Source of the DNA: an uncultured virus (IMG/VR IMGVR_UViG_3300044630_001353)
Taxonomy: Duplodnaviria; Heunggongvirae; Uroviricota; Caudoviricetes
DNA length: 64,000 nucleotides
IMG/VR virus record: IMGVR_UViG_3300044630_001353
Direction: 5' to 3' (one strand)
A program made the position numbers and the translations under genes. Below the pieces are notes generated by a model, which ran no database searches, had not been told where the DNA came from, and saw nothing but the letters and a program-made list of their open reading frames with translations. The stretch's first letter is position 1; each line of letters opens with the position of its first letter. This document shows positions 9,083-36,445 of this stretch, piece after piece.

Positions 9083-10051
9083 ATGGCTGATTTTGAAAAA
9101 GTTGAGTTTGAATTTCCTGATGAAAAGGAAGAAAAGAACCCCCGACAGGGCGGCAGAGTGGTTGATGCTGAGCCTGAAATTGAGGTCGAAAAGCCTGAAA
9201 TTGAGGTGGTTAGCGATGTCCCGGAGGATGATAGGGACCGTGAACCCCTTGGTTTTGACCCCGCAGACCCCACCGATGAGGAGCTGGAAAGCTACACCGA
9301 GAGCGCCCGCAACCGTATAAAGCTGTTTACCAAAGGTTTTCACGACCAACGCAGAGCAAAAGAGTCTGCAGAGCGTGAGAAGGACGAAGCTTTACGCATT
9401 GCACACGCAATTGCTGACGAAAACAAGCGTTTAAAGGGCTCACTCAGCCAAGGGCAGAATGCCTTGCTGGAGCAGGCTAAACGCACTGTTGAGCAGGAGC
9501 TTAAAGATGCGAAAGCGATGTTTAAAGAGGCTTACGAAGCCGGCGACTCGGACAAGTTGTTGGAGGCGCAGGAAGCGCTCACTAACGCTAAAATCCGCGC
9601 CGATAAAGTAAATAATTTTAAGCCAGCCCCTTTACAAGAGCCAGAAACTCCTGTACAAATCACACCGCAACCTCAACAAGTTGCTCCTGTTGACGAAAAA
9701 CTGCTTGCATGGCAAGACCAAAATCAGTGGTTTGGAAGCAACAAGCGCATGACCTCATACGCCCTCGGGCTGCATGAGGAGCTTGTAGAGAGCGGTATAC
9801 GAGTTGGCAGCAACGAATACTACAAACGTATCGATGCTGACATACGCGAAAGATTCCCTGACCAAGTTGGAGCCCGGGAGTCCGTTGATGCAAAACCTCA
9901 ACGTACCAAATCCAATGTTGTTTCACCCGCAACTAGAAGTACTGCACCTAGAAAAATCGTACTGACAGAAACGCAAGTGAATATCGCCAAGCGGTTGGGA
10001 GTTCCGTTGGAACTGTACGCCCGCAAGGTGGCTGAAGAAATGAGGAAATGA
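9083..10051 (+). CDS. putative capsid scaffolding protein
   Basis: Acidic N-terminus, coiled coil, C-terminal IAKRLGVPLELYARK; upstream of the capsid genes. Confidence 0.7.
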   Translation: MADFEKVEFEFPDEKEEKNPRQGGRVVDAEPEIEVEKPEIEVVSDVPEDDRDREPLGFDPADPTDEELESYTESARNRIKLFTKGFHDQRRAKESAEREKDEALRIAHAIADENKRLKGSLSQGQNALLEQAKRTVEQELKDAKAMFKEAYEAGDSDKLLEAQEALTNAKIRADKVNNFKPAPLQEPETPVQITPQPQQVAPVDEKLLAWQDQNQWFGSNKRMTSYALGLHEELVESGIRVGSNEYYKRIDADIRERFPDQVGARESVDAKPQRTKSNVVSPATRSTAPRKIVLTETQVNIAKRLGVPLELYARKVAEEMRK

Positions 10052-11380: not shown

Positions 11381-12292
11381 ATGGCTATTTCACGCGCACA
11401 ACTACTTAAAGAACTCCTCCCCGGCCTGAACGCATTGTTCGGCTTGGAGTACGCCCGCTACGGTGAAGAGCATAAAGAAATTTATGACACTGAAACCTCC
11501 GAGCGTTCCTTCGAAGAGGAAACAAAACTGTCAGGCTTCTCAGCCGCTCCTGTTAAAAACGAAGGCCAAGCCATCGCTTATGACAACGCGCAAGAGGCAT
11601 GGACTGCACGTTACAACCACGAAACAATCGCGATGGGTTTCTCCATCACCGAAGAAGCCGTGGAAGATAACTTGTATGACAGCTTGTCTTCACGCTACAC
11701 AAAGGGCTTGGCTCGCGCCATGGCTTACACCAAACAGGTGAAAGCTGCTGCAACTTTGAACAATGGTTTTAGCTCCGCCTTCACTTATGGCGACGGCGTA
11801 GCATTGTTCTCAACTGCACACCCCTTGGTCAACGGTGGTACAAACAGCAACCGTCCTTCCACAGCCGCTGACTTGAATGAAACATCGTTGGAAAACGCTG
11901 TTATTCAGATCGCAGCTTGGACTGATGAGCGCGGTTTGCTGATCGCCGCTAAGCCCAAGAAGTTGATTGTTCCACCAGCACTGATGTTCGTTGCAACTCG
12001 TTTGCTCGAAACTGAATTGCGCGTTGGTACAGCCGACAACGACATTAACGCATTGAAGAACAATGGTTCCATCCCCGAAGGTTATTGTGTCAACCACTAC
12101 TTGACAGATACCAACGCATGGTTCTTGACAACTGATGTGCCTAATGGTTTGAAGCACTTTGTCCGTACACCGCTGTCTAACAGCATGGACGGCGACTTTG
12201 ACACAGGTAACGTTCGTTACAAAGCCCGCGAGCGTTACAGCTTCGGTGTGTCTGACCCGCTGGGCATTTACGGCTCACCCGGTTCGTCCTAA
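11381..12292 (+). CDS. major capsid protein
   Basis: MAISRAQLLKELLPGLNALFG..., PKKLIVPPAL, RYKARERYSFG; AAGGAG RBS; followed by a terminator. Confidence 0.9.
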   Translation: MAISRAQLLKELLPGLNALFGLEYARYGEEHKEIYDTETSERSFEEETKLSGFSAAPVKNEGQAIAYDNAQEAWTARYNHETIAMGFSITEEAVEDNLYDSLSSRYTKGLARAMAYTKQVKAAATLNNGFSSAFTYGDGVALFSTAHPLVNGGTNSNRPSTAADLNETSLENAVIQIAAWTDERGLLIAAKPKKLIVPPALMFVATRLLETELRVGTADNDINALKNNGSIPEGYCVNHYLTDTNAWFLTTDVPNGLKHFVRTPLSNSMDGDFDTGNVRYKARERYSFGVSDPLGIYGSPGSS

Positions 12293-12303
12293 TCGACGTA
12301 AAG

Positions 12304-12331
12304 AAAAAGGGAGCTTCGGCTCCCTTTTTTG
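12304..12331 (+). terminator. intrinsic terminator
   Basis: aaaaagggagc-ttcg-gctcccttttttt. Confidence 0.9.
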
Positions 12332-12360
12332 TTGCATTGGTTTAAACGGAGTGGTATAAA
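12332..12360 (+). promoter_or_regulatory. sigma70-type promoter
   Basis: TTGCAT-17-TATAAA with extended TG; GTTTAAAC in the spacer. Confidence 0.65.
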
Positions 12361-12365
12361 TAGAC

Positions 12366-12446
12366 ATCCGGGCTTTCCGGTGCATTAGACAGTCCCGGCT
12401 GACGACATACAGACTAATGCACTTAACTTGTATGTAAGGAAAAATC
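12366..12446 (+). ncRNA. candidate cis-regulatory leader RNA with a kissing-loop pseudoknot
   Basis: P1 ccggg/cccgg, P2 acataca/tgtatgt; loops gtgcattag and ctaatgcac are complementary; abuts the SD. Confidence 0.6.
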
Positions 12447-12770
12447 ATGGCATCGACCACCTTCTCCGGCCCAGTAACGTCCACAAATGGCTTTATTGGC
12501 GCAGTAACCGGCAATATCACTGGCAACGTAACAGGCGACGTAACCGGTACAATCACAGGTAATGTAGACTCAACCGCAGGCTACATCCAGCTTCGCACTG
12601 CTACTACAACACAAATTGCTTCTGCAACAGACTCCGTAAACACTGTTGGTAAAGCCGCAGGTACTATTGTGTTTAACACCACTTTAGGTACATTGAAAAT
12701 TGCTACAGGCGCAACTGCTACTAGCACTTGGGTGAATGCTGACGGCACTACCGCTGTTACACCATCCTAA
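12447..12770 (+). CDS. hypothetical virion protein (Thr/Gly-rich, GNVTG repeats)
   Basis: AAGGA RBS; VTGNITGNVTGDVTG repeat. Confidence 0.7.
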   Translation: MASTTFSGPVTSTNGFIGAVTGNITGNVTGDVTGTITGNVDSTAGYIQLRTATTTQIASATDSVNTVGKAAGTIVFNTTLGTLKIATGATATSTWVNADGTTAVTPS

Positions 12771-12786
12771 TTAGGGGCATCAAATC

Positions 12787-13065
12787 ATGATGCAATATGA
12801 CGTAAAAGCGGCGCACACTGAGGCGACAGGCACGGTAGTGTCTCAACGAACACGTTTGAAAGCGTATCACTGCATATCAGGCGGTACTGCTGGGGATGTA
12901 ATCTTTCGTGACGGCGGATCAGGCGGCACCATTCTTTTGCAATTTAACATTGGTACTGGTACACAACCAATCACTATGTCAATTCCCGGAGAAGGTATTT
13001 TGTTCAATACCAATATCCATGTGACATTACCTGCAACTGCCAAAATCACGGTGTTTTATGGCTAA
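12787..13065 (+). CDS. hypothetical virion protein
   Basis: ORF in the late operon, beta-rich. Confidence 0.7.
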   Translation: MMQYDVKAAHTEATGTVVSQRTRLKAYHCISGGTAGDVIFRDGGSGGTILLQFNIGTGTQPITMSIPGEGILFNTNIHVTLPATAKITVFYG

Positions 13066-13303
13066 GAGTCCAGCATGGCAGAGGAAAGAAGGGAAGAACC
13101 CCAAAGGCGGTTTAAACGCCAAGGGTCGAGCCTCCGCCAAAAAGCAAGGGATGAACTTGAAACCGCCCCAGCCAGAAGGAGGCTCCCGCAAGGACTCTTT
13201 CTGTGCGAGGATGGAAGGCATGAAGTCGAAGCTGACGTCCGCAAAGACCGCAAAAGACCCAGACTCTCGTATTAACAAGTCTTTGAGGGCATGGAAGTGC
13301 TAG
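13058..13303 (+). CDS. small basic hypothetical protein
   Basis: K/R-rich, SFCARM..SLRAWKC. Confidence 0.7.
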   Translation: MAKSPAWQRKEGKNPKGGLNAKGRASAKKQGMNLKPPQPEGGSRKDSFCARMEGMKSKLTSAKTAKDPDSRINKSLRAWKC

Positions 13304-35795: not shown

Positions 35796-36445
35796 CGTAC
35801 TTGATTACCTCTGAATTTGAATTAAATAAGGTGGCGGCTCCCAACCTCCCGTTAGCCCCCACGGAATACGAGTCCCGTTATCAAGAGCAATTGAACAACG
35901 TGCTCCGTTTGTACTTTAACAGGCTAGACAGTTTGTTTGGACAGTTTACTGCGTCTACAGACATATCAGGATTGCGAGCGCCTTACGGTGCATTCTCCAG
36001 CGACCAAGACCAAACCACAACAGCCAACACGGCTACGTTGATGACTTTAAACACCACGGACTTTGCTAATGGTGTCAGCATTGCAAGCTCAAAAATTACT
36101 GTAGCTAATGCTGGTATTTATAACTTGCAGTTCAGTGCGCAATTGCAAAATTTAGATAACGCACCACAAGACGTTTATATTTGGCTTAAGCAAAATGGGA
36201 CAGATATTGTTGGGTCAACGGGCTTGGTTGGATTGCCTGCTAGAAAAAGTGCCGGCGTTCCTTTTCACGATATTAAAGGATGGAACTATTTTCTGTCCAT
36301 GAGCGCTAATGATTACGTAGAAATTTACTGGTCACCTACCATTGCCACGGTAACTATTGAAACCTATGCGGCTTCGGGTTCCCCAACCAAACCATCTACC
36401 CAGTCTGTTGTTGCAACAATGGCGTTTGTTTCAGCTTTGCCTTAA
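35792..36445 (+). CDS. hypothetical tail protein
   Basis: PNLPLAPTEY..LRLYFN; C-terminal beta domain (GIYNLQFSAQ). Confidence 0.65.
   Translation: MTYLITSEFELNKVAAPNLPLAPTEYESRYQEQLNNVLRLYFNRLDSLFGQFTASTDISGLRAPYGAFSSDQDQTTTANTATLMTLNTTDFANGVSIASSKITVANAGIYNLQFSAQLQNLDNAPQDVYIWLKQNGTDIVGSTGLVGLPARKSAGVPFHDIKGWNYFLSMSANDYVEIYWSPTIATVTIETYAASGSPTKPSTQSVVATMAFVSALP

What the first reader, a model, noticed from the sequence alone, without database searches (positions are those of the whole stretch)
12332..12449. Kissing-loop leader RNA between the capsid terminator and the next gene
Seen: after the terminator a promoter would start transcription near 12366-12367. The ~80-nt leader has hairpin P1 (ccggg 12368-72 / cccgg 12394-98) and hairpin P2 (acataca 12405-11 / tgtatgt 12429-35). 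Their loops are perfectly complementary over 9 nt (gtgcattag 12380-88 / ctaatgcac 12414-22). P2 ends exactly at the SD (aagga 12436-40) of the ATG at 12447. Inference: a riboswitch-like or protein-responsive translational switch, or a small structural RNA, of a class I cannot assign.
Basis: partly seen in the sequence, partly recalled or inferred. Interest (0 to 1): 0.75.

Follow-up and report, generated by a model that had tools for sequence, protein, structure and literature searches.

The report
Conserved pseudoknotted leader RNA in phages
The stretch between the capsid gene and the next gene encodes a small, intricately folded RNA leader that is conserved in a very abundant group of aquatic phages, matches no catalogued RNA family, and probably controls how much of a capsid-surface protein is made.

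Summary
On this one sequence it is not beyond chance: the fold z-score is 0.35, and 9-nt inverted repeats are as common in shuffles. Comparison with relatives makes it real. A covariance model finds the element once in the window. It also finds it in 63 of 80 loci fetched by the capsid protein, in Pelagibacter phages HTVC023P and HTVC027P, and in lake phage DSL-LC04.

Of all cells, 93.2% pair, 21 of 23 pairs show compensatory changes, and 0 of 500 shuffles do as well. The fold is a double pseudoknot.

It begins 7-10 nt after a -10 box in 83 of 98 sequences. It ends against or inside the Shine-Dalgarno in 88 of 98. It always precedes the same hypervariable post-capsid gene, annotated 'cement' or 'minor capsid' protein in named relatives. 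Rfam 15 has no match.

My best reading is a cis-acting translational operator that may also stabilise the mRNA, with an unknown effector. A riboswitch, a purely constitutive leader or a ribozyme remain possible. It is a new RNA family of a known general kind.

The parts
11381..12292 (+). major capsid protein gene (303 aa), upstream neighbour
   Evidence: Pfam Phage_capsid_4, E 1.5e-14. PHROG 371 major head protein. More than 600 relatives in IMG/VR.
12304..12330 (+). intrinsic terminator after the capsid gene (GGGAGC-TTCG-GCTCCC flanked by A5 and T6)
   Evidence: Sequence read. Fold of -22 kcal/mol, z -5.53. Not listed by the scan.
12332..12360 (+). promoter: -35 TTGCAT 12332-37, 17-nt spacer, extended -10 TGgTATAAA (hexamer 12355-60); predicted start near 12366-67
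   Evidence: Sequence read. A -10-like hexamer is present in 92 of 98 homologues and ends 7-10 nt before P1 in 83 of 98. HTVC027P has the same TTGCAC-N17-TATAAA layout, and both it and HTVC023P have 7 nt between the -10 hexamer and P1. The start site is inferred, not mapped.
12368..12398 (+).
   Evidence: A 5-6 bp helix abutting P3 in 96 of 98; the other 2 have a 4-bp P3. Nine distinct 3'-strand 5-mers occur, each with a complementary 5' strand. 92.4% of cells pair and all 5 pairs show double changes, on an alignment not fitted to P1.
12373..12379 (+). variable linker CUUUCCG; in one clade its 3' end (YCCG) can pair locally with the P1 5' strand
   Evidence: A local hairpin of at least 3 bp in 66 of 66 clade-I leaders but only 14 of 32 clade-II leaders; the shuffled-linker control gives 61% and 43%. 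RNAalifold instead pairs G12379 with U12423, paired in 28 of 28.
   Evidence: 100% paired in 28 of 28 on the MAFFT alignment, 8 of 9 pairs compensatory. 98.4% paired and 9 of 9 pairs compensatory on 98 sequences. Predicted independently by RNAalifold.
12390..12401 (+). P3: CAG 12390-92 pairs with CUG 12399-401; its 6-nt loop is U12393 plus the P1 3' strand
   Evidence: 100% paired. The middle pair is AU 49, UA 40, CG 5, GC 3 over the 97 distinct sequences. It is 4 bp in L067 and L009.
12402..12413 (+). junction with near-invariant unpaired A12402, C12403, G12412 and A12413, flanking the P2 5' strand; A12389 is also conserved
   Evidence: Invariant columns in the 28-sequence alignment; kept in most of the 98 rows by eye.
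12405..12435 (+). P2: ACAUAC 12405-10 pairs with GUAUGU 12430-35; its loop holds the H9 3' strand and a variable 7-nt loop (12423-29)
   Evidence: 4 of 6 pairs compensatory on 28 sequences. 82.4% paired and 5 of 6 pairs compensatory on 98 sequences, on an alignment not fitted to P2. The seventh pair 12411/12429 is kept in only 8 of 28.
12436..12449 (+). Shine-Dalgarno AAGGA 12436-40, A-rich spacer and start codon 12447-49
   Evidence: Sequence read. The SD core starts within 1 nt of the P2 3' end, or inside P2, in 88 of 98 homologues; it lies inside P2 in 17 of 98.
12447..12770 (+). regulated gene: a 107-aa protein of a hypervariable post-capsid family with a conserved N-terminus (MxxTTFxGPV...)
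   Evidence: ORF listed. Five or more subfamilies share the N-terminal motif. The DSL-LC04 homologue is annotated 'cement protein' and the positional counterpart in Pag-Yong1 'minor capsid protein'. Weak PHROG 486 'virion structural protein' match for one subfamily.

Best explanation
This is a cis-acting structured leader. It forms the first ~70 nt (about 12367-12435) of a late mRNA that starts at its own promoter just after the capsid terminator. It folds into a compact double pseudoknot of four helices: P1 12368-72/12394-98, P3 12390-92/12399-401, H9 12380-88/12414-22 and P2 12405-10/12430-35. I take it to act as a translational operator for the gene that follows, a hypervariable capsid cement/decoration-type protein. 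P2 together with H9 places a rigid pseudoknot directly against the Shine-Dalgarno, and in some variants over it. The folded state, and whatever recognises the conserved junction (A12389, A12402, C12403, G12412, A12413), would then set 30S access. P1 also buries the 5' end, which should slow 5'-end-dependent decay.

Shown: the four helices, their conservation, the fixed position relative to the -10 box and the SD, and the exclusive link to one gene family. Inferred: the transcription start, coaxial stacking of P1 on P3 with a 1-nt linker (U12393) crossing the groove, any effect on translation or stability, and the effector.

My odds within this reading are: a conserved trans-acting protein (phage or host) about 0.35, a purely constitutive stabiliser or translation tuner about 0.3, and a small ligand about 0.12.
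For: Covariation: on 98 leaders 93.2% of cells pair, 21 of 23 pairs show changes on both sides, 0 of 500 shuffles reach this, and slid controls pair in at most 40.7%. Each helix was also checked on an alignment not fitted to it: H9, P3 and P2 on MAFFT alignment A1, and P1 and P2 on the covariance-model alignment A2, whose model held neither. RNAalifold finds H9 and P3 unaided.

Strand: G-U pairs are frequent, for example UG 17 at one H9 pair and GU 20 at one P2 pair. These would be A-C mismatches on the other strand.

Position: a -10 hexamer ends 7-10 nt before P1 in 83 of 98. The SD core starts within 1 nt of P2 or inside it in 88 of 98, and inside it in 17 of 98.

Gene link: the window has one copy. 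63 of 80 capsid-anchored loci have a match at E<=1, all on the + strand downstream of the capsid gene. All 37 pattern-derived leaders in A2 lie 47-1243 nt after a capsid homologue. All 98 precede the same N-terminal-motif gene family.

Breadth: HTVC023P scores 42.5 bits (E 1.5e-9), DSL-LC04 E 0.003 and HTVC027P E 0.0046.

Expression: contigs from 4 metatranscriptome runs of 4 studies cover the leader, for example 12367-12446, 12367-12451 and 12386-12529. HTVC027P gp62, the gene behind the leader, is a 'Late' gene with a last average TPM of 28,568, against 11,866 for gp60 and 9,428 for gp63 (rows of Table S3 of PMC12753301 seen).
Against: No effect on expression has been measured. In 81 of 98 variants, the window included, the SD core is outside every helix. 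An unconstrained nested-only fold leaves the SD about 44% unpaired. No mutually exclusive ON/OFF pairing is universal; the local hairpin that competes with P1 is confined to one clade (66 of 66 against 14 of 32).

Leader subtype and downstream protein family are shuffled: the CCCGG leader precedes five families. This argues against simple autoregulation by the protein body.

Only about five unpaired nucleotides are universally conserved. The single-sequence fold energy is unremarkable (z 0.35).

The promoter is not confirmed. One low-depth RNA-library contig spans 12320-12415, across the promoter. In HTVC027P the TPM is already high at gp61 (36,186), upstream of the predicted promoter. RNA-library contigs cannot exclude carried-over DNA.
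Confidence: 0.55

Rival explanations
1. A purely constitutive leader. The knot is a 5'-terminal protective cap against RNase E/RppH-type decay and keeps the A-rich ribosome-binding site open. It gives stable, high, unregulated expression of an abundant virion protein.
For: P1 begins 0-3 nt from the predicted 5' end. The SD and AUG region is A-rich and lies outside the helices in most variants. The gene behind the leader is among the more abundant late mRNAs in HTVC027P. No effector or alternative structure was found.
Against: As far as I recall, known stabiliser hairpins are simple and poorly conserved. Here four helices, a 1-nt linker and invariant junction nucleotides persist from 33% to 62% G+C. 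In 17 of 98 variants the SD is drawn into P2, which would lower expression rather than raise it.
Confidence: 0.25
2. A new small-molecule riboswitch class whose pseudoknot aptamer is fused directly to the SD, as in the preQ1-II/III or SAM-II/V architectures.
For: A pseudoknotted 5' UTR ends at or over the SD. There are conserved unpaired junction nucleotides. The helices vary freely while the architecture is fixed.
Against: No Rfam family matches at E<=10 on the window element or E<=5 on six divergent loci. The regulated gene is a virion structural gene, not a metabolic or transport gene. Very few unpaired positions are universally conserved.
Confidence: 0.12
3. A self-cleaving ribozyme or RNA-processing element that defines the 5' end of the downstream mRNA from capsid read-through transcripts.
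For: A nested, multiply crossing pseudoknot begins exactly where sequence homology begins. One RNA-library contig spans the promoter region (12320-12415).
Against: A -10 box at a fixed distance explains the 5' boundary without cleavage. The strand order (P1a, H9a, P3a, P1b, P3b, P2a, H9b, P2b) differs from the HDV-like order as I recall it. No ribozyme model in Rfam 15 matches.
Confidence: 0.04
4. A put-like or EAR-like RNA that modifies RNA polymerase just after the promoter, so that it reads through terminators in the long late operon.
For: The element lies immediately downstream of a promoter at the head of a long + strand structural operon.
Against: It is tied to the SD of one gene at 0-1 nt spacing, and it travels with that gene when other genes are inserted after the capsid gene. 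Terminator-like sites downstream are not enriched: 28 against 21.3 +/- 3.8 in shuffles.
Confidence: 0.03
5. Chance inverted repeats, or a DNA-level protein operator, with no RNA structure.
For: In the window alone the 9-nt repeat and the fold energy are at chance level.
Against: Compensatory changes occur in 21 of 23 pairs across 98 sequences, with many G-U pairs that work on the + strand only. This excludes both chance and a double-stranded DNA palindrome.
Confidence: 0.01

Closest known systems
E. coli rpsO (S15) leader and thrS operator: protein-bound translational operators next to the SD (recalled from the literature, not read here)
   Same: A 5'-UTR pseudoknot or hairpin sits directly at the ribosome-binding site, and two hairpins can rearrange into a pseudoknot. 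Control would work by trapping or displacing the 30S subunit.
   Different: There is no sequence or covariance-model similarity. Here the AUG and most SDs lie outside the knot. There are four helices with the 5' end paired into a hairpin loop. The effector is unknown, and simple autoregulation is unlikely given the shuffled protein families.
Phage T4 gene 32 mRNA 5' pseudoknot (autogenous translational repression; I saw only the search listings of PMC3014915 and PMC535899, the rest is recalled)
   Same: A phage mRNA leader begins with a pseudoknot and is used for translational control of a protein needed in stoichiometric amounts.
   Different: As I recall, the T4 knot lies tens of nucleotides upstream and nucleates cooperative binding along an unstructured stretch. 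Here the knot abuts the SD, and the gene is a virion protein.
SD-sequestering pseudoknot riboswitches (preQ1-II/III, SAM-II/V)
   Same: A compact pseudoknot, sometimes with an embedded hairpin, whose 3' strand reaches the SD.
   Different: None of these Rfam models matches. The gene context is not metabolic. There are far fewer conserved core nucleotides.
Intramolecular kissing-loop RNAs
   Same: Two hairpins, P1 and P2, have loops that pair over 9-10 bp, and all three helices covary.
   Different: A fourth helix, P3, crosses P1. H9 can equally be drawn as the closing stem of an H-type pseudoknot with P2. The topology is therefore a double pseudoknot.

Membership tests
Any Rfam 15 family | A covariance-model match at or near the family's gathering score | tested here: not met
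   cmscan at E<=10 on window 11800-13000 gave only weak sraA/STnc320 matches, all starting on the terminator; one minus-strand sraA match reaches 12375. At E<=5 on six loci with divergent leaders, no match fell on a leader.
   P1 pairs in 92.4% of cells with 5 of 5 pairs compensatory. P2 pairs in 82.4% with 5 of 6 compensatory.
   H9 pairs in 98.4% of cells with 9 of 9 pairs compensatory, and in 28 of 28 on the MAFFT alignment.
   This needs chemical probing or a solved structure.
Protein-bound translational operators (rpsO/thrS/T4 gene 32 type) | A structured element at the ribosome-binding site of the regulated gene | tested here: met
   P2 ends within 1 nt of the SD core or overlaps it in 88 of 98.
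Protein-bound translational operators (rpsO/thrS/T4 gene 32 type) | Specific binding of a repressor protein, often the gene's own product | not testable with these tools
   Leader subtypes and protein families are shuffled. This speaks against the variable protein body as the effector but is not a binding test.
Small-molecule riboswitch | A conserved ligand pocket, and a gene context tied to the ligand's metabolism or transport | tested here: not met
   The downstream gene is always a post-capsid virion-type gene. Only about five unpaired positions are universal.
Small-molecule riboswitch | A ligand-dependent change of structure | not testable with these tools
   This needs in-line probing or ITC.
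5'-terminal mRNA stabiliser stem | A helix within a few nucleotides of the transcript's 5' end | tested here: inconclusive
   P1 starts 7-10 nt after the -10 hexamer in 83 of 98, so it lies 0-3 nt from the predicted start. The start itself is not mapped.
HDV-like and other self-cleaving ribozymes | The family's helix order and catalytic core, as captured by its Rfam model | tested here: not met
   No Rfam ribozyme model matches. The strand order differs from the HDV order as I recall it.

The most novel reading that the evidence does not exclude
The leader is a new class of sensor RNA carried by the HTVC023P-type phages and their freshwater relatives. A double-pseudoknot aptamer, binding either a host metabolite or a capsid-assembly intermediate, would gate translation of the hypervariable capsid-surface (cement/decoration) protein. 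The virion's outer coat would then be made only when the cell or the assembly line is ready.
Probability: 0.15. Interest if true: 0.9.

Novelty: new variant of a known kind. Interest (0 to 1): 0.7.

Why it matters
Structured cis-regulatory RNAs in front of phage structural genes are, as far as I know, rarely described. This one is small and its fold is complex: four helices, two crossings, and the 5' end paired into a hairpin loop. It is strongly supported by covariation.

It is also widespread. The motif is present in cultured pelagiphages HTVC023P and HTVC027P. [quoted passage not shown]

It marks the boundary of a hypervariable virion-surface gene cassette. It could therefore explain how very different proteins are expressed at a fixed level after cassette exchange. 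It also offers a compact, testable model for pseudoknot-controlled translation in SAR11-type hosts. Because a cultured phage-host pair with published RNA-seq exists, the question can be tested directly.

Tried and rejected
- **Single-sequence folding.** The energy is no better than shuffles.
- **Near-identity DNA search in named phages.** No match. blastn with the leader found nothing for the window leader and only HTVC023P itself for its own leader.
- **Home-made four-helix descriptor scan.** It hit many random places in the window on both strands, so it was unspecific and I dropped it.
- **Local hairpin between the P1 5' strand and 12377-79.** My first coordinates were off by one, giving 68.8% paired. 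Re-analysis shows it is confined to one clade and only modestly above a shuffled-linker control. I treat it as an open side issue, not part of the core fold.
- **Structure prediction of the downstream proteins.** The L123 family gave pLDDT 52.0 and the window family 59.6. Both are too poor, so I ran no fold search.
- **Function of the downstream proteins.** PDB sequence searches gave no significant match. The ESM Atlas gave only unnamed viral clusters. Pfam and PHROGs gave almost nothing.
- **Second copy in one 65-kb contig (G006).** The two matches lie at the two contig ends, each beside a capsid or capsid-like ORF. This is most simply one locus assembled twice, not two copies per genome.
- **Host inference from bacterial genomes.** The 5 pattern hits, all confirmed by the model, lie in freshwater MAGs labelled as five different lineages, on contigs of 3.6-60 kb. 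Mis-binned phage contigs seem likely, so no host can be named.
- **Metatranscriptome cover.** Parts of the stretch without cover (for example 12556-12637) say nothing, and contigs cannot show a transcript start.
- **Earlier notes of this scan.** None exist for this genome.
- **Literature searches.** Searches for the phage names, for pelagiphage with riboswitch, and for phage leader/pseudoknot/decoration terms found no description of this motif. These cover only the held open-access library.

Full report
**Observation.**
- P1: ccggg 12368-72 / cccgg 12394-98.
- P2: acataca 12405-11 / tgtatgt 12429-35.
- The 9-nt complement: gtgcattag 12380-88 / ctaatgcac 12414-22.
- aagga 12436-40 and ATG 12447.

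The capsid gene (11381-12292; Pfam Phage_capsid_4) ends upstream. It is followed by a strong hairpin plus T run at 12304-12330 (-22 kcal/mol, z -5.5). Next comes TTGCAT (12332-37), 17 nt, and TGgTATAAA (hexamer 12355-60). The consensus scan listed neither the terminator nor the promoter.

Taken alone, the sequence is unremarkable. The 95-nt fold has z = 0.35. Perfect 9-nt inverted repeats with a 10-60 nt gap are as frequent in the window (10) as in block shuffles (mean 11.1).

**Relatives.**
- The capsid protein has more than 600 relatives in IMG/VR. The best 80 loci were kept, at 86-93% amino-acid identity.
- Named relatives include Pelagibacter phages HTVC023P and HTVC027P, phage DSL-LC04 and Planktothrix phage Pag-Yong1.
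- blastn of the leader against the 80 loci showed that homology starts abruptly at 12366-68 and runs to the start codon. In several loci the block lies about 900 nt further from the capsid gene, behind an inserted gene.
- A MAFFT alignment of 28 leaders (A1) was used to build covariance model R1. The model contained only a local hairpin, H9 and P3.
- R1 finds one match in the 64-kb window (104.7 bits).
- It finds matches in 63 of 80 capsid loci at E<=1 (58 at E<=0.01). All are on the + strand downstream of the capsid gene.
- A 17-nt core pattern scanned over IMG/VR gave 120 stretches, of which 80 were fetched. Of these, 64 were full-length model matches and the rest chance.
- With filters off, R1 also finds HTVC023P (42.5 bits, E 1.5e-9, before gp41), DSL-LC04 (E 0.003, before the 'cement protein' gene) and HTVC027P (E 0.0046, before gp62).
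- By eye, phage 023Pt_psg01 carries the element too, below the model's reach.
- Pag-Yong1, CRP-901 and the Alcaligenes phage gave no match.
- Of the 17 capsid loci without a match I read 14. L027 has a divergent copy and L045 a copy cut by the contig end. Most of the others have a different gene directly after the capsid terminator or end too early.

**Structure.** On A1, which is not fitted to any structure:
- H9 pairs in 28 of 28, with compensatory changes at 8 of 9 pairs.
- P3 (CAG 12390-92 / CUG 12399-401) pairs in 28 of 28. Its middle pair takes all four Watson-Crick forms.
- P2 is sound over 6 bp. The seventh pair is kept in 8 of 28.
- RNAalifold finds H9 and P3 unaided and adds a tenth H9 pair, G12379-U12423.

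I then aligned 98 matches to R1 (A2). The input was 100 of the 161 sources held at that point: the window, 62 capsid loci, and 37 of the 64 pattern loci, chosen to favour the lower scores. On A2 the four-helix structure gives the following:
- 93.2% of cells pair, against 73.0% in shuffles (0 of 500 shuffles reach it) and at most 40.7% when partners are slid.
- 21 of 23 pairs carry changes on both sides.
- P1 and P2 were not in the model, so their counts (92.4% and 82.4% paired) are not biased by fitting.
- Frequent G-U pairs fix the strand as +.

Anchoring on P3, the P1 3' strand is complementary to a 5-6 nt stretch near the 5' end in 96 of 98. The other two simply have a 4-bp P3. Nine different P1 sequences occur.

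In the more divergent leaders the local hairpin that R1 modelled is absent while P1 persists.

**Topology.** The strand order is P1a, H9a, P3a, P1b, P3b, P2a, H9b, P2b. H9 crosses both P1 and P2, and P3 crosses P1.

The P1 3' strand runs straight into the P3 3' strand (12394-12401). P1 and P3 can therefore stack end to end, with the single linker nucleotide (U12393) spanning P1. This is the geometry of loop 1 in an H-type pseudoknot. That step is inference from the sequence, not a computed model.

H9 and P2 form a second H-type pseudoknot with P3 embedded in its first loop. The universally conserved unpaired bases are A12389, A12402, C12403, G12412 and A12413.

**Context.**
- A -10-like hexamer is present in 92 of 98 and ends 7-10 nt before P1 in 83 of 98.
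- The spacing is 7 nt in the window, in HTVC023P and in HTVC027P.
- The SD core starts within 1 nt of the P2 3' end or inside P2 in 88 of 98. It is partly inside P2 in 17 of 98.
- All 98 leaders precede one gene family with a conserved N-terminus (M-x-x-S/T-T-F/H-x-G-P...) and very different bodies of 57-240 aa.
- The DSL-LC04 member is annotated 'cement protein'. By the paper's methods passage, that annotation rests on nr, conserved-domain and HHpred searches.
- The positional counterpart in Pag-Yong1 is annotated 'minor capsid protein'.
- Leader subtype and protein family are shuffled relative to each other.

**Expression.** Contigs assembled from four metatranscriptome runs of four studies cover the leader. 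They cannot show transcript ends or exclude DNA. One low-depth contig (12320-12415) spans the promoter.

In the HTVC027P infection RNA-seq (PMC12753301; I read the abstract, section 12 and rows of Table S3), gp62 is a 'Late' gene. Its last average TPM is 28,568. The neighbours are capsid gp59 at 74,585, gp60 at 11,866, gp61 at 36,186 and gp63 at 9,428. The leader-bearing gene is therefore abundant. The rise is already seen at the tiny gp61 ORF upstream of the predicted promoter, so the promoter is not confirmed.

**Interpretation.** A fold this elaborate is kept from 33% to 62% G+C and from marine to freshwater phages. It starts at a promoter and ends on the SD of one gene family. It is almost certainly a functional cis-acting leader RNA.

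I favour a translational operator that also protects the 5' end (confidence 0.55). The effector is more likely a conserved protein than a small molecule. The rivals are a purely constitutive stabiliser or tuner (0.25), a riboswitch (0.12), a ribozyme or processing site (0.04) and a put-like antiterminator (0.03). Chance or a DNA operator is excluded.

**Comparison and novelty.** No Rfam 15 family matches the element. The library searches I ran found no description of it. In how it would work, it resembles protein-bound operators at ribosome-binding sites (rpsO, thrS, T4 gene 32; recalled) and SD-linked pseudoknot riboswitches. It is a member of none of these families. I rate it a new RNA family of a known general kind, with interest 0.7.

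Noticed in passing
L202 3940-4010 (Planktothrix phage Pag-Yong1, OL906435.1): The leader of the positional counterpart ('minor capsid protein') is G+C-rich and not matched by the model. By eye it can form a simpler H-type pseudoknot (CCCGGGG/CCCCGGG crossing CCGTCTCC/GGAGACGG) whose second stem contains the SD. This is a single sequence with no covariation support.
   Followed up: partly
L032, L034, L035, L004, L060, L073 after the capsid stop; L209 (G006): In several relatives other genes sit between the capsid terminator and the leader-bearing gene. Some start with GIY-YIG-like motifs. Others share a cysteine/histidine-rich N-terminus (M-E/D-Y-P...H-Y-F-T-G-x-P-C...). They look like homing-endonuclease-type insertions.
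   Followed up: no
G006 contig ends (L080 and L209): Both ends of a 65-kb IMG/VR contig carry a capsid or capsid-like ORF followed by a leader and a different downstream gene. This is most simply a circular genome assembled with a diverged terminal overlap from two strains.
   Followed up: partly
L210-L214 (genome contigs): Five freshwater MAGs carry the leader on contigs of 3.6-60 kb. They are labelled Armatimonadetes, Caulobacter, Chloroflexota, Nanopelagicales and 'uncultured bacterium'. These are probably phage contigs mis-binned into MAGs.
   Followed up: partly
window 12447-12770 and relatives (A4): The window's 107-aa protein has tandem four-residue repeats (GNITGNVTGDVTGTITGNV) right after the conserved N-terminus. 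Relatives vary the number of such repeats and swap the C-terminal part entirely, so the gene is a hypervariable cassette.
   Followed up: partly
window 13058-13303: An 81-aa ORF matches DUF6321 (E 1.9e-19). In several PHROGs this domain is the C-terminal tail of much longer proteins.
   Followed up: no
L205 3262-3384 (HTVC027P gp61): This annotated 41-aa ORF lies just upstream of the predicted leader promoter. Its TPM (36,186) is higher than its neighbours gp60 and gp62. It may be part of an untranslated transcript region and not a gene.
   Followed up: no
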